Assembly: GCA_913009635.1 (NCBI GenBank)
Contig: CAJVXI010000002.1
Span: 1-57,860, forward strand
From: an uncultured bacterium
GTDB taxonomy: Bacteria > Patescibacteriota > Minisyncoccia > UBA6257 > UBA9933
DNA length: 57,860 nt
Direction of reading: 5' to 3'
Part shown: in pieces, positions 1,063 through 57,860 of the stretch
Layout: every line of letters starts with the position of its first letter
How positions within the stretch are numbered: the first letter of the stretch is position 1
Notes under the pieces: model-generated
Databases searched by the model: none
What the model saw: only the letters and a program-made list of their open reading frames with translations
Told to the model about the DNA's origin: nothing
Program-made: the position numbers and the translations under genes

Positions 1063-1806
1063 TTATTTACATAACGTAGCAAGAGCGATCAATTTGCCTC
1101 TCAGTGTTGATGAATTCCACCAATTTCCAGGACAATCAGTTCCTTCTCTAGCTTCGCAATGCCCGATAATATTTTTAATATTTGAATATTGTTTGATGAT
1201 TCTTGCGGCACTTTCAATGGCCGAGAAAGCTGGAGGCGAATTACTATAATCGCCGGCAAAGCATATTGCTATACTTGTACGATTTACAGCTTTATTTCCT
1301 GCATGTAAACCAATTTGATGGTCTTGTAGAAGTCGTTCGCGTGAGCCATCAGGCCTGATAATCCAATGATAATTGTAAAAAATCTGTTTGTTGTTTTTAT
1401 CAAAATGGCCAGAACAAATAGGTTTTCCATAGAAAAGGCGGTGCAAAGAATTATGACATCGGGAATATTCAGCCACATAAACATTTAGAAATCCCATTAC
1501 AGAAAGGTATTCTTTGCTTATCTCTGGTTCGGTCTTTGTGTGGTGAATAACAATATTGGTTATTTCTCTCTCTATTTCTCTTTCGTGAAAAAATGTAGGA
1601 CCTTCTCTATCCAAGGCAATCAAATTATCACAGAGAAGTTCTTTTATGAGGTTGTAGAAGTTTAACCTAAAAAATACGTCTCCGTTAAATTTTTTTAAAT
1701 CAGTTGCAACCGGTTCTTTAATATACCAATCAGGATATTTTAGGGCTTCTTTCCATCCTTCACAATCAATAAATTTAACATATTTAGACAATATTTCATT
1801 AATCAT
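1063..1806 (-). CDS. N-acetylmuramoyl-L-alanine amidase (Amidase_2/PGRP-fold) domain protein
   Basis: IVIHHT, GLHAGN and GHCEAREGTDCPG motifs in the C-terminal half. The N-terminal ~90 aa are unassigned. Confidence 0.65.
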   Translation of the reverse strand: MINEILSKYVKFIDCEGWKEALKYPDWYIKEPVATDLKKFNGDVFFRLNFYNLIKELLCDNLIALDREGPTFFHEREIEREITNIVIHHTKTEPEISKEYLSVMGFLNVYVAEYSRCHNSLHRLFYGKPICSGHFDKNNKQIFYNYHWIIRPDGSRERLLQDHQIGLHAGNKAVNRTSIAICFAGDYSNSPPAFSAIESAARIIKQYSNIKNIIGHCEAREGTDCPGNWWNSSTLRGKLIALATLCK

Positions 1807-1864
1807 AACTCCTCCTTTTTAAATTTTTAATGTGCTATACAAAATCTCATTTCGTTCAATTTTG

Positions 1865-1936
1865 TTGCGGGGGTGGGAATTGAACCCACTACCTCGAGAT
1901 TATGAGCCTCGCGAGCAACCGTTACTCCTCCCCGCG
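1865..1936 (-). tRNA. tRNA-Met (CAT), initiator-like
   Basis: Reverse complement cgcggggaggagtaacggttgctcgcgaggctcataatctcgaggtagtgggttcaattcccacccccgcaa. Anticodon loop is cuCAUaa. The C1/A72 mismatch is typical of bacterial initiator tRNA. Confidence 0.85.
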
Positions 1937-1995
1937 TCTTTATTATATTTACTTTTCTTAAAAAATCAAGTATATTTTATTTATAAAGTGGCGAT

Positions 1996-2067
1996 GCCGG
2001 CGTAGCTCAGTGGCAGAGCGAGAGATTCATAAACTCTAGGCCGCAGGTTCGATCCCTGCCGTCGGCA
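1996..2067 (+). tRNA. tRNA with CAT anticodon (elongator Met or lysidine-modified Ile2)
   Basis: gccggcgtagctcagtggcagagcgagagattcataaactctaggccgcaggttcgatccctgccgtcggca. Acceptor gccggcg/cgtcggc, anticodon loop uuCAUaa. Confidence 0.85.
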
Positions 2068-2086
2068 CTATAATAATTAAATTAAA

Positions 2087-3121
2087 ATGCTAGAGAAAAT
2101 AAAAAAATTCTTCTCAAAAGAGATAAAGGAAATAGGTGATTTAAAAAACTTAGAGCAACTAAGGGTTAAATATCTTGGTCGGAAAAGCGAATTAACCCAA
2201 ATTTTGCGTTCTCTAAAAAATTTTTCAATTGAAAAACGTCGCAAAATCGGTCCACAGGCGCAAAAACTCAAAAAAGAAATTGAAATAATATTAACTAAAA
2301 AACTTAAAGAACTAAAAGCTAAAAACTCAAAACTAAAAGTTGATATAGATATTACAAGGCCGGGTGAAAAAATTAAACTTGGTCATATTCATCCTTTAAC
2401 TAAAATTGAAGAAGAAATTCGCCAAATTTTTCTTTCAATGAATTTCTCGGTTGTTGAGGGGCCGGAAGTGGAAAATGAACATTATAATTTTGACGCTTTA
2501 AATATTCCGCCAAATCATCCAGCAAGAGACATGTGGGACACGTTTTGGCTAAAAACACAGACCAATACGGACTATACACAGATTGATACGGAAGGTCTGT
2601 ATAAGTCCGTGTCCAGTCAGTATAAGTCCATGTTACTGCGGACACATACAAGCCCGGTTCAAATTCGCTATATGGAAACTCATAATCCGCCATTTCAGAT
2701 TATTGTGCCTGGCAGGGTTTTTAGATATGAGGCGATTGATGCTTCTCATGAAATAAATTTCTATCAATTAGAAGGGCTGATAGTCGGGGAAAATGTTTCA
2801 TTGGCAAATTTTAAATCAGTAATAGAGGAATTCTTTAGAAAACTTTTTGGAAATAAAATTGAGTTTCGTTTTCGTCCAAGTTATTTTCCTTTTGTTGAGC
2901 CGGGATTAGAAGTTGATATTAAATTAGGTAAGGATTGGTTGGAGATTATGGGTGCTGGAATGGTCCATAGAAAAGTTTTTGACGCTGTCCGTTATAATCC
3001 GAATGAAGTTCGAGGAATTGCTTTTGGAGTTGGAATAGACCGCTTAGCAATGATAAAATACAACATTCCTGATATTCGTTTGTTTTATAATGGAGATTTG
3101 CGATTTATTAAACAATTCTAA
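2087..3121 (+). CDS. pheS: phenylalanine--tRNA ligase alpha subunit
   Basis: HPARDMWDTFW, LLRTHTSPVQIR, FRPSYFPFVEPG and GAGMVH class II motifs. Carries a 25-codon repeat insertion (see 2555..2629). Confidence 0.95.
   Translation: MLEKIKKFFSKEIKEIGDLKNLEQLRVKYLGRKSELTQILRSLKNFSIEKRRKIGPQAQKLKKEIEIILTKKLKELKAKNSKLKVDIDITRPGEKIKLGHIHPLTKIEEEIRQIFLSMNFSVVEGPEVENEHYNFDALNIPPNHPARDMWDTFWLKTQTNTDYTQIDTEGLYKSVSSQYKSMLLRTHTSPVQIRYMETHNPPFQIIVPGRVFRYEAIDASHEINFYQLEGLIVGENVSLANFKSVIEEFFRKLFGNKIEFRFRPSYFPFVEPGLEVDIKLGKDWLEIMGAGMVHRKVFDAVRYNPNEVRGIAFGVGIDRLAMIKYNIPDIRLFYNGDLRFIKQF
2555..2629 (+). repeat. 75-bp palindromic element, family A copy 1, in frame in pheS (TQTNTDYTQIDTEGLYKSVSSQYKS)
   Basis: acacagaccaatacggactatacacagattgatacggaaggtctgtataagtccgtgtccagtcagtataagtcc. 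About 80-90 percent identical by eye to 4330..4404 and 38856..38930. Sits between conserved DTFW and LLRTHTS. Confidence 0.85.
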
Positions 3122-54412: not shown

Positions 54413-54431
54413 ATAGCCATATTATACCAAA

Positions 54432-54465
54432 AAATAAACGGTTCACATATATGAACCGTTTATTT
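54432..54465. terminator. bidirectional hairpin terminator
   Basis: aaataaacggttca-catatatg-tgaaccgtttattt type palindrome flanked by A/T runs. Confidence 0.7.
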
Positions 54466-54535
54466 TATTATAAGCTCCGAACTCTGAACGAAATCCGAAC
54501 TTTTTTTAAGGAAAATCTGGACTCTGAATTTTGAT

Positions 54536-54768
54536 GCCCCGCCGCCGCTCGCTGACGCTCAGCTGCCAAGCAGAAAAGTTTTCTTTACATTTTTTGATTT
54601 CGCGCGTCCCTAAAAATTTTCTCAATTAAGGAAAAGAAAACTTTTCTGCTTGGCTATGTTCTGACGAACAGGCGGCGGGGCTTTCACATTCGGACGGCTC
54701 GGCATTCCTCCCCCAGACCCCCTCCTTCCGCCGAGCCCTCGCTTGGGATAGCGAATTTTGGCGGGGCT
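54536..54768 (-). other. GC-rich nested inverted-repeat region in the 3' tail of the TIR operon (candidate structured RNA)
   Basis: Outer arms gccccgccgcc/ggcggcggggc, inner 19-bp perfect arms gccaagcagaaaagttttc/gaaaacttttctgcttggc, side hairpins gctga-cgc-tcagc and gttc-tgac-gaac. A second hairpin ggctcggc/gccgagcc has a 26-nt C-rich loop. Direct repeat ggcggggct. Confidence 0.5.
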
Positions 54769-54801
54769 ATAAAATCAAGTATAGAAAGCAATTTATAGAT
54801 T

Positions 54802-55095
54802 TTATACCAACCTCTTTTTTCCTTTGTATAATTTCATCTTACGTTTTTTACCATACTGCAAAGCGGGACCAGTAAAGCCGCTTTTACTGATGAATTTTGT
54901 TACACCTTTTCTACGTGCTTTTACAACTTCGGGTCGTGGAACAGGCCTTTGCCAACTTTTCATTTCTAATTTCTGATTACCTTTCTTTGCGTCAGGATTG
55001 CCTGGGCCACCAATACGCTTTGCTCCATGATCTCTTGCTTTTTTCTTTTCGTAGGATGTACCCCGCTTTTGAGGATATCCTTTTTTATTCTTCAT
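54802..55095 (-). CDS. small basic PD-(D/E)xK-like nuclease (Hjc/VRR-NUC-like), 97 aa
   Basis: RGTSYEKKK ... GGPGNPDAKKGNQKLEMKSW matches the E ... PD ... E-x-K pattern. ATG at 55095 is preferred over the TTG at 55179. Confidence 0.45.
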   Translation of the reverse strand: MKNKKGYPQKRGTSYEKKKARDHGAKRIGGPGNPDAKKGNQKLEMKSWQRPVPRPEVVKARRKGVTKFISKSGFTGPALQYGKKRKMKLYKGKKRLV

Positions 55096-55124
55096 AGTTT
55101 TAATTATATCTATATTATTATTAA

Positions 55125-55751
55125 TTATTTTTGGTAATGCATAAAAAGAGTGTAAAGAACGATTGAAACCAAAATACAAAGTGCGATTATGGTATTAAGT
55201 ATAAGGAAAACAGAAACCGCGGAAAAAGAGTTCATCCATTCACTTATAATTTTTACTAAAACAACGACTGCCAAAAGAGAGGGAAATATAACCATATATA
55301 ATATCCATATCCAATCTGAAAATTTTGGATACTTTTTCAGATAAGATTTACCCTCTCTTGTGAAAGTTATTCCATCGTCAAATTTGCTATGTAGCTCTTT
55401 TTCTAGACGGTGGATATATGTATATTGTCGCTCAATATAAACGACTACTTGTGTATATCGTACTATTGTAACCAATAACGCAAACCAAATGATACTACCA
55501 AGAAAACTTCCATTAACACTTACTGATAACCCTAACTTCTGCGCGGATATTTGAGAAAACGTTGTTATGGCATCCGCGGGCCAAAACGTATACAACGCCA
55601 CAAATGCCAACACCAAAAGAATTAAAGCCGTTAACTTATCGCGAAGACTAATTGACTCTTTTATGTTCGCAAAAGTGTCGTTGTAATGTTTATGCAAGGC
55701 AATAAATTTTGTATCAGTGGATACGTCTGTCATATTAGTTTTTAGGGGCAC
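55125..55751 (-). CDS. 4-TM membrane protein, candidate effector of the TIR module
   Basis: Four hydrophobic helices (aa ~40-58, 83-105, 145-170, 177-203). The GTG start overlaps the TIR gene by 17 nt; the alternative ATG at 55733 abuts its stop. Confidence 0.6.
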   Translation of the reverse strand: MPLKTNMTDVSTDTKFIALHKHYNDTFANIKESISLRDKLTALILLVLAFVALYTFWPADAITTFSQISAQKLGLSVSVNGSFLGSIIWFALLVTIVRYTQVVVYIERQYTYIHRLEKELHSKFDDGITFTREGKSYLKKYPKFSDWIWILYMVIFPSLLAVVVLVKIISEWMNSFSAVSVFLILNTIIALCILVSIVLYTLFMHYQK

Positions 55752-56172
55752 GATCTAAAACATCAATGATGTTATCTTCGGTATATCCTTCAACGATGGA
55801 GTACTTGCCCTCGAAAATTTCTTTTGGGAGTGAATAACTCTTTTCAAGTCGTACCGCGGCAAGTCTATTTCCATCTTCAATGCTTTTAGCTACCTCGAAG
55901 TTAATCCAATTTCGGTATCCAATTAACTCGTGGTCTTTATGTTGTTTATTTGTCTCTTTACCAACAATTATTAGAGTATGTGTTGCTTCGCGGATTTTTT
56001 TCCTAAGCCCCGCTTTAATTGAACCAATATTTTCGCTATTGATTTCAGTAGGAGTTTTATCGCTAAAAACAAAATCAAATTCGTCATTAGCATCCCACGC
56101 TTCCAATAAATACTTGTAATGTTTATCGTTCTCGTAGTCAAAACTCACGAAAACTTTCTTTTTATCTGCCAT
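55735..56172 (-). CDS. ThsB-like TIR-domain protein (DUF1863/MTH538 TIR-like type)
   Basis: KKVFVSFDYENDKHYKYLLEAW, SIKAGLRKKIREATHTLIIVGKETN, and NWINFEVAKSIE with a candidate catalytic Glu. Confidence 0.7.
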   Translation of the reverse strand: MADKKKVFVSFDYENDKHYKYLLEAWDANDEFDFVFSDKTPTEINSENIGSIKAGLRKKIREATHTLIIVGKETNKQHKDHELIGYRNWINFEVAKSIEDGNRLAAVRLEKSYSLPKEIFEGKYSIVEGYTEDNIIDVLDRAPKN

Positions 56173-56338
56173 AGCTTTTAATAGTTAATTAATAATTATC
56201 CTATCGACGTCATGGTTTAGAAAACCATCAGGATGCCTTAATTTTACAGCAATTTGATTACTCTTGTCAACTCGTCAAGTGTTAATGCCCTGTGGATAAC
56301 TTTTTGCGTTTTCTTGACAGGTGTCTTATAATAAAAAT

Positions 56339-56965
56339 ATGCACAGCATTCAAGAAAAATTAATAAAACTAATCAATAGTAAAAACATAGACAATCTTAC
56401 TCTCCGACAAATTGGAGAACTGATAGGAGAAAATCTGCCTCAAAAAATAAAACATCATCTTTCTCAACTTGAATGCAAAGGGTTTATTTTAATTGATAAA
56501 AAAAATAAAAAGATCAGCCGAATTAATAATCAAAGAGGGATCGGTGAACTCTTTGTTTCCATACCGATCGTCGGTTCTGCCAATTGTGGGCCAGCAAATA
56601 TTTACGCAGATGAAAATATTACCGGACACCTTAAAGTATCTAAAAAACTTGTTCCTCGTGGGAAAAAATTATTTATCCTACGAGCTGAAGGAAATTCCAT
56701 GAACAAAGCTAATATTAAAAATGGTAAAAGTATTGAAGACGGAGATTTTGTAATCGTTGATGCCGATCAAATAAGCCCTGAATCTGGCCAATATGTCGTC
56801 TCTGTGATTGATGGAATGGCGAATATTAAGAAATTTATTTTAGACAGAGAAAATAAAAGAGTAATTCTTAAATCCGAATCAACACAGGATTACCTCCCCA
56901 TATTCATTCATGAAGACGATCAATACAAAGTTAGCGGAAGAGTTATTGACGTAATTAAAAAGTAG
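56339..56965 (+). CDS. LexA/CI-like repressor (wHTH + S24 peptidase)
   Basis: N-terminal LTLRQIGELIG HTH. S24 catalytic Ser in EGNSM and Lys in ANIKKF. ATG at 56339 is preferred over the GTG at 56321. Confidence 0.75.
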   Translation: MHSIQEKLIKLINSKNIDNLTLRQIGELIGENLPQKIKHHLSQLECKGFILIDKKNKKISRINNQRGIGELFVSIPIVGSANCGPANIYADENITGHLKVSKKLVPRGKKLFILRAEGNSMNKANIKNGKSIEDGDFVIVDADQISPESGQYVVSVIDGMANIKKFILDRENKRVILKSESTQDYLPIFIHEDDQYKVSGRVIDVIKK

Positions 56966-56995: not shown

Positions 56996-57757
56996 ATGGG
57001 TAGTTTATCAATACAACAAAAAATAAAAAAATCTAGAAAATCAAATCTAGACGATTTACCATTGAATGAGATTTTACATGGCGACGCGGTGGAAATGTTA
57101 AAAACTTTACCGAGTAATTCTATTGACCTTATTGTAACATCCCCCCCTTACGATGAAGTACGAAATTATAATGGTAATTATAATTTTGATCTTCATGCCA
57201 CAGGAGAACAAATAAAACGCGTCCTAAAAGATGGCGGTATAGCAGTGATGGTAATTCAAGATCAGACAAAAAATTTTGCAAAGACTCTTACATCGTTTAG
57301 AACAATTGTCGATTGGGTAGATAAAATTGGGCTACGCCTCTTTGAAACGGTTATTTATAGAAAACATGGCACAGAAGGAGCTTGGTGGAAACATAGATTT
57401 AGAGTTGACCACGAATATATACCAATTTTCCTCAATGGAGATAGACCACAATATTTTAATAAAGAATCACTAAAGATTCCTTCAAAACATGGAGGAAAAA
57501 TTATGACTGGAAGTGGAAATAGAAGAACAGATGGCTCCACAACAAAAACTGTAACTCGGCCTATCAACCTAATGAAATGCAGGGGTACTGTTTGGAATTA
57601 CTTAATGGCCGGAGACAAGGACCCCTTAAAAAGACAACATCCTGCTGTGTTCCCCGACCAAATTCCTTATGATTTTATTCAATGCTTTTGTCCACCAGGA
57701 GGCGTTGTTCTTGACCCCTTTGGCGGCTGCGGATCCACTGCTGTAGCAGCAAAGCAA
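56996..57757 (+). CDS. beta-class N4-cytosine/N6-adenine DNA methyltransferase, 3' end lost to adapter sequence
   Basis: Motif IV DLIVTSPPYD comes before motif I VLDPFGGCGSTAVAA. The ORF-track C-terminus DRKSTRLNSSHIPLSRMPSSA is translated adapter. Confidence 0.8.
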
Positions 57758-57860
57758 GATCGGAAGAGCACACGTCTGAACTCCAGTCACATTCCTTTAT
57801 CTCGTATGCCGTCTTCTGCTTGAAAAAAAAAAAAAAAACAACAGTAATCTCAATATTATT
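57757..57860. other. Illumina TruSeq indexed adapter read-through plus poly-A and junk (assembly artefact)
   Basis: agatcggaagagcacacgtctgaactccagtcac-attccttt-atctcgtatgccgtcttctgcttg followed by A16. Confidence 0.97.

What the first reader, a model, noticed from the sequence alone, without database searches (positions are those of the whole stretch)
54802..56172. TIR (ThsB-like) + 4-TM protein + small PD-(D/E)xK protein operon: candidate Thoeris-like defence module without a ThsA
Three co-directional, tightly packed minus-strand genes. Gene 1 (145 aa) shows the ThsB/DUF1863 TIR-like pattern: VFVSFDYENDKHYK, IKAGLRKKIREATHTLIIVGKET, and WINFEVAKS with a candidate catalytic Glu. Gene 2 (208 aa) overlaps or abuts gene 1 and has four predicted TM helices and no recognisable sensor domain. 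Gene 3 (97 aa, very basic) has an E ... G-x-PD ... E-x-K pattern like Hjc/VRR-NUC nucleases. No SIR2, Macro or SLOG ThsA-type partner is present. In known systems a TIR protein makes a nucleotide signal that activates an effector. Here the only effector candidates are a bare 4-TM protein and a mini-nuclease, a combination I do not recognise as a described type. Its location in a reduced CPR-like genome adds interest.
Basis: partly seen in the sequence, partly recalled or inferred. Interest (0 to 1): 0.85.

Follow-up and report, generated by a model that had tools for sequence, protein, structure and literature searches.

The report
TIR plus four-helix membrane defence pair
A small TIR enzyme gene and an adjacent four-helix membrane-protein gene form a widespread, probably Thoeris-type anti-phage pair that a 2025 survey predicted but nobody has tested; the third small gene is only a neighbour.

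Summary
The three minus-strand genes are real. Gene 1 is a ThsB-type TIR protein (PF08937, 47 bits) and keeps the catalytic Glu (E93). Gene 2 is a roughly 200-aa four-helix membrane protein from a large family with no name: 826 representatives, and no match in Pfam, PADLOC, NCBIfam, PHROGs or PDB. The two genes sit 14 nt overlapping to 20 nt apart in all but one distinct locus, across many bacterial phyla, one archaeon and three viral contigs. Where the ThsB-type TIR is missing, a TIR of another Pfam family lies next to the membrane gene. Yirmiya et al. (bioRxiv, Dec 2025) list this pairing as a predicted but untested Thoeris type ("4TM"). The window TIR is 54-65% identical to 13 of the 17 listed TIRs compared. 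So this is a new member of a predicted kind, not a new kind. Gene 3 (97 aa, pI 11.1, conserved E/D/ExK, weak Mrr_cat signal) is not part of the system. It is missing from almost all TIR-4TM loci and occurs at the end of unrelated defence clusters. By-catch: the island holding these genes is bracketed by inverted copies of a roughly 300-nt GC-rich structured repeat. The same repeat brackets variable, defence-rich cargo in many metagenome contigs. It has no Rfam match.

The parts
55735..56172 (-). thsB-like gene: 145-aa stand-alone TIR protein, candidate catalytic Glu E93 (NFEVAKS)
   Evidence: Pfam PF08937 ThsB_TIR scores 47.3 bits against a cutoff of 21.2. PADLOC ThsB1 gives 1.2e-14. E93 is 100% conserved in 34 non-redundant 4TM-linked TIRs and aligns with the Glu of the B. 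cereus ThsB motif RYEIMKS and of type VII and X TIRs. Identity to 13 of the 17 '4TM' TIRs compared from Yirmiya et al. Table S1 is 54-65%, and 40-51% to the other four.
55125..55733 (-). Gene for the 202-aa four-helix membrane protein, the candidate Thoeris effector ('4TM'). An alternative GTG start lies at 55751.
   Evidence: 61 close clusters. A profile search finds 826 representatives at E<=1e-3, nearly all about 200 aa. No Pfam, PADLOC, NCBIfam or PHROGs family matches. The AF2 model is all-helical with pLDDT 75. Foldseek against PDB gives nothing below E=1. Conserved residues H16, Y17, R31, Y93, Q95, E101, R102, Q103, Y104, Y106, E111, R126, E127, Y131, Y135, P136 fall in the K/R-rich segments. 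A TIR gene lies immediately upstream in nearly all loci.
54802..55095 (-). g3: 97-aa very basic protein, probably a minimal Mrr_cat-like PD-(D/E)xK domain. It may be co-transcribed with the pair but is not a conserved component of it.
   Evidence: E16, D35, E44 and K46 are invariant. 18 of 25 homologues give weak Mrr_cat hits, best E 4e-4, all sub-threshold. AF2 pLDDT is 85 with an alpha-beta-beta-beta-alpha-beta-alpha-beta order. Foldseek against PDB finds no significant match and no nuclease. It occurs without TIR-4TM in L048, L049/50, L053-55 and L056/57.
56241..56270 (-). Promoter-like site about 70 nt upstream of the TIR start, in the intergenic region shared with the divergent LexA-like gene
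   Evidence: TTGACA-18 nt-TAAAAT, 11 of 12 matches. This is a consensus match only.
56321..56965 (+). Divergent LexA-like S24 repressor gene. It recurs next to the module in some CPR loci but is not a general neighbour.
   Evidence: Peptidase_S24 at 3.3e-19 plus a weak LexA_DNA_bind hit. TIGR00498 lexA scores 81.6 bits, below its cutoff. An S24 gene lies co-directionally upstream of TIR-4TM in L001-3 and L013. It is absent within 4 kb in most other loci.
56996..57756 (+). N4/N6 DNA methyltransferase gene, cut short in the window by adapter sequence. It belongs to a neighbouring restriction-modification-like cluster in the same island.
   Evidence: N6_N4_Mtase at 5.5e-25. The full 284-aa gene, plus an HTH_3 gene of the kind that serves as controller in R-M systems and a 338-aa ORF, are seen in L015, the same sequence from another assembly.
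54484..54776 (-). GC-rich structured repeat directly downstream of g3. It is the right-hand copy of the inverted repeat that brackets the island.
   Evidence: Nested hairpins. A 152-nt inverted repeat, 95% complementary, lies at both ends of L015. The same motif occurs in at least 120 metagenome contigs, always as a '-' copy on the left and a '+' copy on the right when two are present. The 5' hairpin has compensatory changes in 11 of 14 pairs. No Rfam match.
54431..54466 (.). Perfect 18+18-nt palindrome followed by a T-run, just upstream of the RarA/MgsA gene. It is terminator-like.
   Evidence: Inverted repeat I3, 94% complementary with 0 nt between the arms; sequence read.
57757..57860 (.). 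Illumina TruSeq adapter read-through plus a poly-A run. This is not biological sequence.
   Evidence: The sequence AGATCGGAAGAGCACACGTCTGAACTCCAGTCAC...ATCTCGTATGCCGTCTTCTGCTTG is present. The window matches L015 at 100% only up to 57756.

Best explanation
Genes 1 and 2 form a two-gene Thoeris-type abortive-infection module. The ThsB-like TIR protein is the sensor and signal synthase. On phage infection it converts NAD+ into a nucleotide second messenger. That messenger is most plausibly a cyclic ADP-ribose isomer, because validated type VII TIRs that make canonical cADPR belong to the same TIR cluster. The 4TM protein is the effector. It binds the signal on its cytoplasmic face, which is formed by the N-terminal helix, the extension of the second membrane helix and the loop before the third, and which carries the invariant H16/Y17, R31, Y93/Q95, ERQY(101-104), Y106, E111, R126/E127 and Y131/Y135. 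It then oligomerises or opens and breaches the membrane, stopping the infected cell.

**Shown here:** TIR family membership and the catalytic Glu; tight, phylum-spanning operon linkage; swapping between TIR families next to the same membrane family; defence-island and mobile-element contexts.

**Inferred:** the enzymatic product, ligand binding, membrane disruption and the phage trigger.

Gene 3 and the LexA-like gene are neighbours within the same island, not parts of the system.
For: - **TIR identity:** PF08937 at 47 bits and PADLOC ThsB1 at 1e-14. E93 is invariant and aligns to the Glu of the conserved RYEIMKS motif of B. cereus ThsB; that this Glu is catalytic rests on my own knowledge.
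- **Linkage in GTDB genomes:** of 33 loci found through the 4TM profile, 26 have a ThsB-type TIR upstream on the same strand. L022 (with its near-identical relative L023, not scanned separately) has a CAP12-PCTIR TIR downstream, and L025 has a TIR_2 protein downstream. Two more loci are cut by contig ends and one is a fragment.
- **Spacing:** the TIR stop lies between 14 nt overlapping and 20 nt before the 4TM start in all but one distinct locus.
- **Viral contigs:** all 3 loci with a 4TM relative also have the TIR upstream.
- **Defence or mobile context:** HinP1I R-M plus Vsr (L004), HpaII R-M (L013), HNH and DndD-like genes (L010), type I R-M (L025, L042), integrases (L009, L014).
- **Literature:** Yirmiya et al. 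2025 list about 32 TIRs with a '4TM' partner as a predicted Thoeris type, in TIR cluster 2727267812. That cluster also holds type VII (SLATT) system TIRs chosen for testing; the paper reports that three TIRs paired with SLATT effectors make cADPR.
- **Link to the paper's class:** the window TIR is 54-65% identical to 13 of the 17 listed TIRs compared. P0168, which is 90-92% identical to two listed TIRs, is followed in L014 by a homologue of window gene 2 (36% identity, E 5e-40).
- **Several TIRs per effector:** some Table S1 contigs carry two '4TM' TIRs two genes apart, as in other Thoeris systems where several ThsB serve one effector.
- **Sensor surface:** conserved polar residues of the 4TM protein fall in the K/R-rich, so presumably cytoplasmic, segments.
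Against: - No experiment exists for this configuration. The paper did not select '4TM' for testing.
- The 4TM protein has no recognisable nucleotide-binding domain and no structural homologue.
- The monomer model is only moderate (pLDDT 75) and weakest in the loop I propose as the sensor (residues 126-132 below 50).
- The identity of the signal is extrapolated from TIRs only 32-36% identical.
- In L022 the partner is a CAP12/Pycsar-type TIR, a family usually read as an NADase effector. That fits a reversed division of labour equally well.
Confidence: 0.65

Rival explanations
1. Reversed roles. The 4TM protein is a membrane sensor, for example of phage DNA injection or envelope stress, and it activates the small TIR protein. 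The TIR is then the effector and depletes NAD+.
For: The TIR protein is minimal at 145 aa, with no extra sensing domain. The 4TM protein sits where infection begins. In L022 the partner is a CAP12/Pycsar-effector-type TIR. TIR NADase effectors are known in CBASS, Pycsar and pAgo systems.
Against: The TIR belongs to the ThsB family and to a cluster that includes signal-producing TIRs. Conservation in the 4TM protein is mostly on the cytoplasmic side, and the predicted outside loops are short and variable. Several TIRs per single 4TM gene in some contigs fits many sensors feeding one effector.
Confidence: 0.17
2. One reading: a three-gene system in which the small PD-(D/E)xK protein (g3) is a second, or the real, effector activated by the TIR signal.
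For: g3 is co-directional and 29 nt downstream of gene 2, with no terminator-like site between them on their strand. The same TIR-4TM-g3 order recurs in L004/L005. The catalytic-type residues E16, D35, E44 and K46 are invariant.
Against: g3 is absent from all other TIR-4TM loci examined; only L004, L005 and the window's own contig L015 have it. Its family is confined to CPR, with 42 clusters, while TIR-4TM spans many phyla. g3 follows unrelated clusters: DUF2130, MmeI-like R-M, and an AAA_15/SMC-like ATPase. The third gene after TIR-4TM varies: a Zn_ribbon_DnaG protein in L001-3 and a 245-aa unknown in L006-8.
Confidence: 0.05
3. Not a defence system. A TIR-like (nucleoside 2-deoxyribosyltransferase-fold) enzyme and a small membrane transporter or anchor act in nucleotide or NAD salvage, which would be useful to an auxotrophic CPR cell.
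For: CPR bacteria depend on scavenged nucleotides (established knowledge). The 4TM protein has no known function.
Against: The distribution is patchy and cuts across phyla, in R-M/Dnd neighbourhoods, next to integrases and on viral contigs. The TIR cluster was found enriched next to defence genes by Yirmiya et al.. Partner TIRs of three different families are hard to fit to one metabolic reaction.
Confidence: 0.06

Closest known systems
Predicted '4TM' Thoeris configuration (Yirmiya, ... Sorek, bioRxiv 10.64898/2025.12.03.692087, Table S1 and Fig. 1C)
   Same: The TIR belongs to the same subfamily, at 54-65% identity to 13 of the 17 listed TIRs compared. The same membrane-protein family lies next to a TIR that is 90-92% identical to listed ones. 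The layout is the same two-gene operon.
   Different: The paper gives only TIR sequences and the label '4TM'. It provides no effector sequences and no description in the text, and it did not test this configuration. The window copy is a CPR member carried in an inverted-repeat-bracketed island, with g3 as an extra downstream gene.
Type VII Thoeris (ThsB + ThsH SLATT effector; signal canonical cADPR)
   Same: The TIRs fall in the same cluster, 2727267812. Both have a small membrane-spanning effector with no enzymatic domain. The proposed logic is the same: the signal binds a cytoplasmic pocket and drives a membrane-breaching oligomer.
   Different: The 4TM protein is not a SLATT protein. None of the 27 members hits a SLATT or DUF4231 model, and hhalign against a bona fide DUF4231/SLATT_1 partner gives probability 1.1%. 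The window TIR is only 32-36% identical to type VII TIRs and carries a clade-specific 10-residue insertion before the NW..E motif. The gene order is TIR first.
Type V Thoeris (ThsF, DUF2270, three TM helices; 3'cADPR) and type II Thoeris (Macro plus TM effector; His-ADPR)
   Same: A TIR signal synthase is paired with a membrane effector thought to kill by membrane damage.
   Different: There is no PF10028 or Macro match. The protein has four rather than three or two membrane helices. The signal is unknown.
Bare transmembrane effectors of CBASS and Pycsar (S-4TM, S-2TMbeta, PycTM)
   Same: These are small multi-pass membrane proteins that serve as effectors of nucleotide-signalling defence without a separate sensor domain. 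The analogy rests on established knowledge; DefenseFinder labels for them appear.
   Different: They have a different signal synthase (CD-NTase or cyclase rather than TIR). Eight diverse 4TM members match no PADLOC-DB model.

Membership tests
Thoeris (TIR-signalling defence, generic) | A ThsB-type TIR-domain protein | tested here: met
   PF08937 scores 47.3 bits against a cutoff of 21.2. PADLOC ThsB1 gives 1.2e-14.
Thoeris (TIR-signalling defence, generic) | Conserved catalytic glutamate in the TIR | tested here: met
   E93 is invariant in 34 4TM-linked TIRs. It aligns with the Glu of the B. cereus ThsB motif RYEIMKS and of type VII and X TIRs.
Thoeris (TIR-signalling defence, generic) | A conserved operonic partner gene (effector) next to the TIR gene | tested here: met
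   26 of 33 GTDB loci have a ThsB-type TIR upstream, and L022 and L025 have a TIR of another Pfam family downstream (L023 resembles L022 but was not scanned). All 3 viral loci also have the TIR. The gap runs from 14 nt overlap to 20 nt.
Thoeris (TIR-signalling defence, generic) | Phage-triggered NAD-derived signal that activates the effector; protection from phage | not testable with these tools
   Needs expression, phage challenge and LC-MS.
Predicted '4TM' Thoeris type (Yirmiya et al. 2025) | TIR of cluster 2727267812 with a '4TM' neighbour | tested here: met
   54-65% identity to 13 of the 17 listed TIRs compared. The neighbour of P0168, a TIR 90-92% identical to listed ones, is homologous to window gene 2 at E 5e-40. 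The link is indirect because the paper gives no effector sequences.
Type I Thoeris | ThsA with SIR2 and SLOG domains | tested here: not met
   None of the six genes scanned between 53282 and 57823 has a SIR2 or SLOG hit.
Type II Thoeris | Effector with a Macro domain plus TM helices | tested here: not met
   No Macro hit in gene 2 or in 27 homologues.
Type VII Thoeris | Effector with a SLATT/DUF4231 domain | tested here: not met
   No SLATT hit at E<=1 in 27 members. hhalign against a DUF4231/SLATT_1 protein gives probability 1.1%.
Type V Thoeris | Effector of family DUF2270 (PF10028) | tested here: not met
   No PF10028 hit.
PD-(D/E)xK / Mrr_cat nucleases (gene 3) | Conserved E ... D ... (D/E)xK catalytic residues | tested here: met
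   E16, D35, E44 and K46 are invariant in 25 homologues.
PD-(D/E)xK / Mrr_cat nucleases (gene 3) | Profile match above the family threshold | tested here: not met
   Mrr_cat scores 15.7-16.1 bits against a cutoff of 21. 18 of 25 members hit weakly, best E 4e-4. No PDB sequence hit.
PD-(D/E)xK / Mrr_cat nucleases (gene 3) | Restriction-endonuclease-like alpha-beta-beta-beta-alpha-beta fold | tested here: inconclusive
   The AF2 model (pLDDT 85) has the right order of elements. Foldseek against PDB gives nothing below E=0.18 and no nuclease among the top hits.

The most novel reading that the evidence does not exclude
The 4TM family may be a new kind of ligand-gated membrane effector whose nucleotide sensor is built from only a helix and a loop. 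In this genome it also rides as cargo in a class of element I could not find described: gene cassettes of 1.7-11 kb, rich in defence genes, bracketed by outward-facing inverted copies of a conserved, covarying GC-rich structured repeat of about 300 nt. These cassettes often lie next to a tRNA gene and a large serine recombinase gene. The arrangement could be a cassette-exchange or inversion platform that shuttles defence genes among small-genome bacteria.
Probability: 0.25. Interest if true: 0.75.

Novelty: new member of a known kind. Interest (0 to 1): 0.4.

Why it matters
If this is a Thoeris-type pair, it shows TIR signalling immunity in ultra-small CPR bacteria. It also puts sequences, conserved residues, topology and distribution to an effector family that the literature so far names only as '4TM'.

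The family is large: 826 representatives at 50% identity clustering. It has no Pfam entry and no structural relative. That makes it a good target for working out how a roughly 200-aa membrane protein can both read a nucleotide signal and kill the cell.

The analysis also removes a false lead, the mini-nuclease as a system component. Separately, it flags a structured repeat that brackets defence cargo and deserves its own study.

Tried and rejected
- **Family searches for the 4TM protein:** Pfam, PADLOC, NCBIfam and PHROGs gave nothing real for the window protein or for up to 27 relatives.
- **Structure search for the 4TM model:** Foldseek against PDB returned only generic helical hits with E>1.
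- **SLATT relationship:** rejected by hhalign, probability 1.1%.
- **Plasmid and phage records:** tblastn of the 4TM protein found no match.
- **g3 as a nuclease:** a PDB profile search found nothing, and Foldseek found nothing significant. The nuclease call therefore rests on motif conservation and weak Mrr_cat hits only.
- **A LexA operator in the 56173-56320 intergenic region:** I found only weak short inverted repeats and make no claim.
- **Rfam for the GC-rich region:** only sub-threshold hairpin-type hits, to miRNA families and two enterobacterial sRNAs, and nothing at gathering thresholds in 14 loci.
- **The conserved 2-kb flank of the repeat as rRNA:** rejected. It is a tRNA gene plus a large serine recombinase gene.
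- **First metagenome pattern:** it was mis-specified and found nothing.
- **Catalytic Glu citation:** Ka et al. 2020 does not mention ThsB E85. The statement that this Glu is catalytic rests on my own knowledge of later work plus the motif alignment.
- **S24 repressor as a system component:** rejected, because it is absent from most loci.
Full report
**Observation**

The window carries three co-directional minus-strand ORFs at 55735-56172 (145 aa), 55125-55751 (208 aa from a GTG) and 54802-55179 (125 aa from a TTG). The DNA and the homologue alignments favour shorter forms of the last two. Gene 2 most likely starts at the ATG at 55733, giving 202 aa, one base after the stop of gene 1. Gene 3 most likely starts at the ATG at 55095, giving 97 aa. 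A strong promoter-like site (TTGACA-18-TAAAAT, 56270-56241) lies upstream of gene 1. No terminator-like site separates the genes on their own strand. The flanking genes are a RarA/MgsA ATPase gene on one side and, on the other, a divergent LexA-like S24 repressor gene followed by an N4/N6 DNA methyltransferase gene.

**Gene 1 is a ThsB-type TIR**

It matches Pfam PF08937 (ThsB_TIR) at 47.3 bits against a cutoff of 21.2. It also matches several PADLOC ThsB models, the best at 1.2e-14. I aligned 34 non-redundant TIRs that sit next to a gene 2 homologue. In that alignment E93 (NFEVAKS) is invariant. It lines up with the Glu of the conserved RYEIMKS motif of B. cereus ThsB and with the equivalent Glu of type VII and type X Thoeris TIRs. 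That this Glu is the catalytic residue is my own knowledge; Ka et al. 2020 does not mention it. This clade also has a specific insertion of about 10 residues (NKQHKDHELIGY) before the NW..E motif.

**Gene 2 belongs to a large unnamed membrane-protein family**

- A word-indexed search found 61 clusters at 40-100% identity, all from CPR-type metagenomes.
- A profile search of 1.84 billion representatives found 826 proteins at E<=1e-3 and 610 at E<=1e-10. Nearly all are stand-alone and about 200 aa.
- No member matches any Pfam, PADLOC, NCBIfam or PHROGs family.
- The AlphaFold2 model (pLDDT 75, pTM 0.62) is all-helical. A long N-terminal helix runs into the first membrane helix, the second membrane helix has a long extension, and a short loop helix precedes two more membrane helices.
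- Foldseek against PDB finds nothing below E=1.

Hydropathy gives four membrane segments. The N-terminus and the loop at residues 98-140 hold 14 of the 16 K/R residues that lie in the five non-membrane segments I counted, which argues that both face the cytoplasm. Across 36 sequences from many phyla, the invariant or near-invariant residues are mostly polar: H16, Y17, R31, Y93, Q95, E101, R102, Q103, Y104, Y106, E111, R126, E127, Y131, Y135 and P136. They sit in or beside those two segments. So the protein lacks a known sensor domain, but it has a conserved cytoplasmic surface.

**The TIR-4TM linkage is the core finding**

- Distant gene 2 homologues (44-50% identity) still follow a ThsB_TIR gene.
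- TIR relatives at 57-61% identity in Bacillus marasmi, Lutibacter, a 5.5-Mb Poribacteria genome and another metagenome contig (L014) are followed by proteins homologous to gene 2 at E from 2e-25 to 2e-50. The 77%-identical TIR in a contig binned as Bacteroidales (L013) has a partner at E 2e-62.
- A scan of one genome per GTDB species with the 4TM profile gave 33 loci. They come from Patescibacteria, Planctomycetales, Bacillaceae, Chloroflexota, Saccharibacteria, Gammaproteobacteria, Desulfobulbaceae, Oscillospiraceae, Poribacteria, Prevotella, Treponema, a Methanotrichaceae archaeon and others.
- 26 of the 33 have the ThsB-type TIR directly upstream on the same strand.
- The gap between the TIR stop and the 4TM start runs from a 14-nt overlap to 20 nt in all but one distinct locus.
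- Of the seven exceptions, L022 has a CAP12-PCTIR-type TIR protein immediately downstream, and L023 is a near-identical Neobacillus relative I did not scan separately. L025 has a TIR_2 protein immediately downstream. Two more loci are cut by contig ends and one is a fragment.
- All three viral-contig loci with a 4TM relative also have the TIR upstream.

One membrane family paired with three different TIR families is the pattern expected of a signal producer and its effector.

The neighbourhoods point to defence or mobility:
- HinP1I R-M plus Vsr (L004)
- HpaII R-M (L013)
- HNH and DndD-like genes (L010)
- type I R-M (L025, L042)
- integrases (L009, L014)

**Comparison with the literature**

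Yirmiya et al. (bioRxiv 10.64898/2025.12.03.692087, Dec 2025) scanned defence islands for TIR systems. They annotated 29 putative Thoeris types and validated types V to XI. Their Table S1 lists about 32 TIRs whose putative effector is labelled '4TM'. All are in TIR cluster 2727267812, and none was selected for experiments. The label does not appear in the main text.

- The window TIR is 54-65% identical to 13 of the 17 listed TIRs I compared, and 40-51% to the other four.
- P0168, one of my TIR hits, is 90-92% identical to two listed '4TM' TIRs. Its downstream neighbour in L014 is a homologue of window gene 2 (36% identity, E 5e-40). So the paper's '4TM' class and this family are the same thing.
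- The same TIR cluster holds TIRs of type VII (SLATT effector) systems that were chosen for testing; the paper reports that three TIRs associated with SLATT effectors make canonical cADPR. They are 32-36% identical to the window TIR.
- The 4TM protein is nevertheless not a SLATT protein. No SLATT or DUF4231 hit appears in 27 members. hhalign against a genuine DUF4231/SLATT_1 partner from a Staphylococcus plasmid gives probability 1.1%.
- It is also not DUF2270 (type V) and not Macro-TM (type II).

**Gene 3 is a neighbour, not a component**

- Its family is small (42 clusters), confined to CPR and highly conserved, at 57% identity or more.
- E16, D35, E44 and K46 are invariant.
- 18 of 25 members hit Mrr_cat weakly, best E 4e-4 and always below threshold.
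- The AF2 model (pLDDT 85) has an alpha-beta-beta-beta-alpha-beta-alpha-beta order, which fits a PD-(D/E)xK core.
- Foldseek and a PDB profile search give nothing significant. The nuclease assignment is therefore probable, not shown.
- Among all TIR-4TM loci examined, g3 is present only in L004, L005 and the window's own contig L015.
- g3 also occurs at the 3' end of a DUF2130 gene next to LexA and a Dam-type methylase (L048), next to LexA, Vsr and a C5 methylase (L049/50), after an MmeI-like R-M cluster (L053-55), and after an AAA_15/SMC-like ATPase cluster (L056/57).
- The third gene after TIR-4TM differs elsewhere: a Zn_ribbon_DnaG protein in L001-3 and a 245-aa unknown protein in L006-8.
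- An S24 repressor gene lies upstream in some CPR loci (L001-3, L013) but not in general.

**Mechanism**

The best-supported reading (confidence about 0.65) is a two-gene Thoeris-type module. The TIR senses infection and makes an NAD-derived signal, possibly a cADPR isomer. The 4TM protein binds the signal on its conserved cytoplasmic face and breaches the membrane. This matches what has been proposed for the ThsF, ThsH and Macro-TM effectors. Family membership, linkage and context are shown here. The chemistry and the membrane action are inferred.

The main rival (about 0.17) reverses the roles, with a membrane sensor and an NADase TIR. A three-gene system that includes g3 (about 0.05) and a non-defence salvage role (about 0.06) are unlikely, for the reasons given in the Rival explanations section.

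**What surrounds it (by-catch)**

*Adapter contamination.* The last 104 bases of the window (57757-57860) are Illumina TruSeq adapter plus a poly-A run, which truncates the methylase gene.

*The island.* The same sequence from another assembly (L015, 4,760 bp) shows the full island. An HTH_3 gene of the kind that serves as controller in R-M systems and a 338-aa ORF converge on the methylase gene. LexA and then TIR-4TM-g3 follow. The whole unit is bounded by 152-nt inverted repeats that are 95% complementary. The window copy of this repeat is the GC-rich, hairpin-rich stretch just downstream of g3 (about 54484-54776). In L004 the island (HTH, C5 methylase, HinP1I, Vsr, TIR, 4TM, g3) is bounded by perfect 34-nt inverted repeats beside a tRNA gene. 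A homologous GC-rich element follows g3 there too.

*The repeat family.*
- In all 18 contigs with two copies, the left copy is on the minus strand and the right copy on the plus strand. They lie 1.7-11.3 kb apart.
- In nearly every contig the genes between the copies run in one direction; three contigs carry a small opposite-strand ORF.
- The cargo is rich in defence functions: N6_N4 methylases (9 of 74 ORFs), ResIII, Eco57I/MmeI, AAA_15 with OLD-TOPRIM, ThsB_TIR, PLD, SNF2, Tsp45I and DruA. It also includes metabolic genes.
- Several left flanks carry a tRNA gene, a large serine recombinase gene, or both. Others hold an IS110 transposase gene or unrelated genes.
- One inverted-repeat-cargo unit is 99.96% identical over 6.7 kb in two contigs with different outer flanks. 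Flanks that are 85-92% identical carry different cargo.
- 58 non-identical copies align over about 330 nt.
- The 5' hairpin has an invariant G-rich loop and compensatory changes in 11 of 14 stem pairs.
- Nothing in Rfam 15 matches.

I did not work out what this element is. I could not settle whether it is a structured RNA, a recombination site or a transposon end. I flag it for separate study.

**Verdict**

The TIR-4TM pair is a new CPR member of a Thoeris configuration that has been predicted but not tested. The mini-nuclease is a bystander. Interest is moderate (0.4). A specialist would not be surprised by the pairing. The effector family, however, is large, uncharacterised and now well delimited, and the bracketing structured repeat may be the more novel thing in this region.

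Noticed in passing
window 57757-57860: Illumina TruSeq adapter read-through plus poly-A at the contig end. It creates the false methylase C-terminus ...KSTRLNSSHIPLSRMPSSA. The true 284-aa gene is in L015 at 1517-2371 (minus strand).
   Followed up: yes
window 54484-54776 (minus strand); L015 2-153 and 4608-4759; L004 2952-2985 and 6950-7299; L058-L137: A GC-rich structured repeat of about 300 nt with an invariant G-rich loop (GGAAGGGGGTCTGGGGGAAGGAA) and covarying stems. Outward-facing inverted copies bracket the island that holds TIR-4TM-g3. In at least 18 metagenome contigs they bracket 1.7-11 kb of variable, defence-rich cargo in which nearly all genes run one way. There is no Rfam match.
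   Followed up: partly
L065 52-1615, L083 40-1605, L113 53-1681, L066 522-1463: Just outside the left repeat copy, several contigs carry a tRNA gene and a large serine recombinase gene (Resolvase+Recombinase+Zn_ribbon_recom, 509-521 aa). L066 has an IS110-family transposase gene there instead. In L065 and L137 the recombinase gene itself appears flanked by about 148-nt inverted repeats.
   Followed up: partly
L048 4001-4294, L049 4001-4294, L053 4001-4300, L056 4001-4297, L110 9663-9926: The 97-aa basic Mrr_cat-like protein (g3) recurs as the last gene of unrelated defence-like clusters in CPR contigs: DUF2130, MmeI-like R-M, and an AAA_15/SMC-like ATPase. The downstream flanks are not syntenic. 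In L110 it again abuts a copy of the GC-rich repeat.
   Followed up: partly
L015 285-1525 (beyond the window's right end): An HTH_3 gene (73 aa), of the kind that serves as controller in R-M systems, and a 338-aa ORF with no Pfam match converge on the methylase gene. This looks like a C-R-M restriction-modification system sharing the island with TIR-4TM.
   Followed up: partly
L001 3588-6027: In another CPR contig an S24 repressor gene, a 70-aa DUF3892-like gene, TIR, 4TM and a Zn_ribbon_DnaG gene sit as a block inside the ribosomal-protein operon, between the S8 and L5 genes.
   Followed up: no
L022 3995-5667; L025 4001-5705: In Bacillaceae (L022) and a Chloroflexia genome (L025) the 4TM gene comes first and is followed by a longer TIR protein of another family (CAP12-PCTIR_TIR or TIR_2) with an uncharacterised C-terminal region of about 200 aa. 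L023 (Neobacillus) resembles L022 but was not examined.
   Followed up: partly
P0190: A 2,229-aa protein matches the 4TM profile in 42 separate stretches, all at profile positions 89-116 (the VRYTQ..YIERQY segment). It may be a repeat protein built from that motif, or a compositional artefact.
   Followed up: no
window 54431-54466: A perfect 18+18-nt palindrome followed by a T-run, immediately upstream of the RarA/MgsA start. It probably terminates transcription coming from the island.
   Followed up: no
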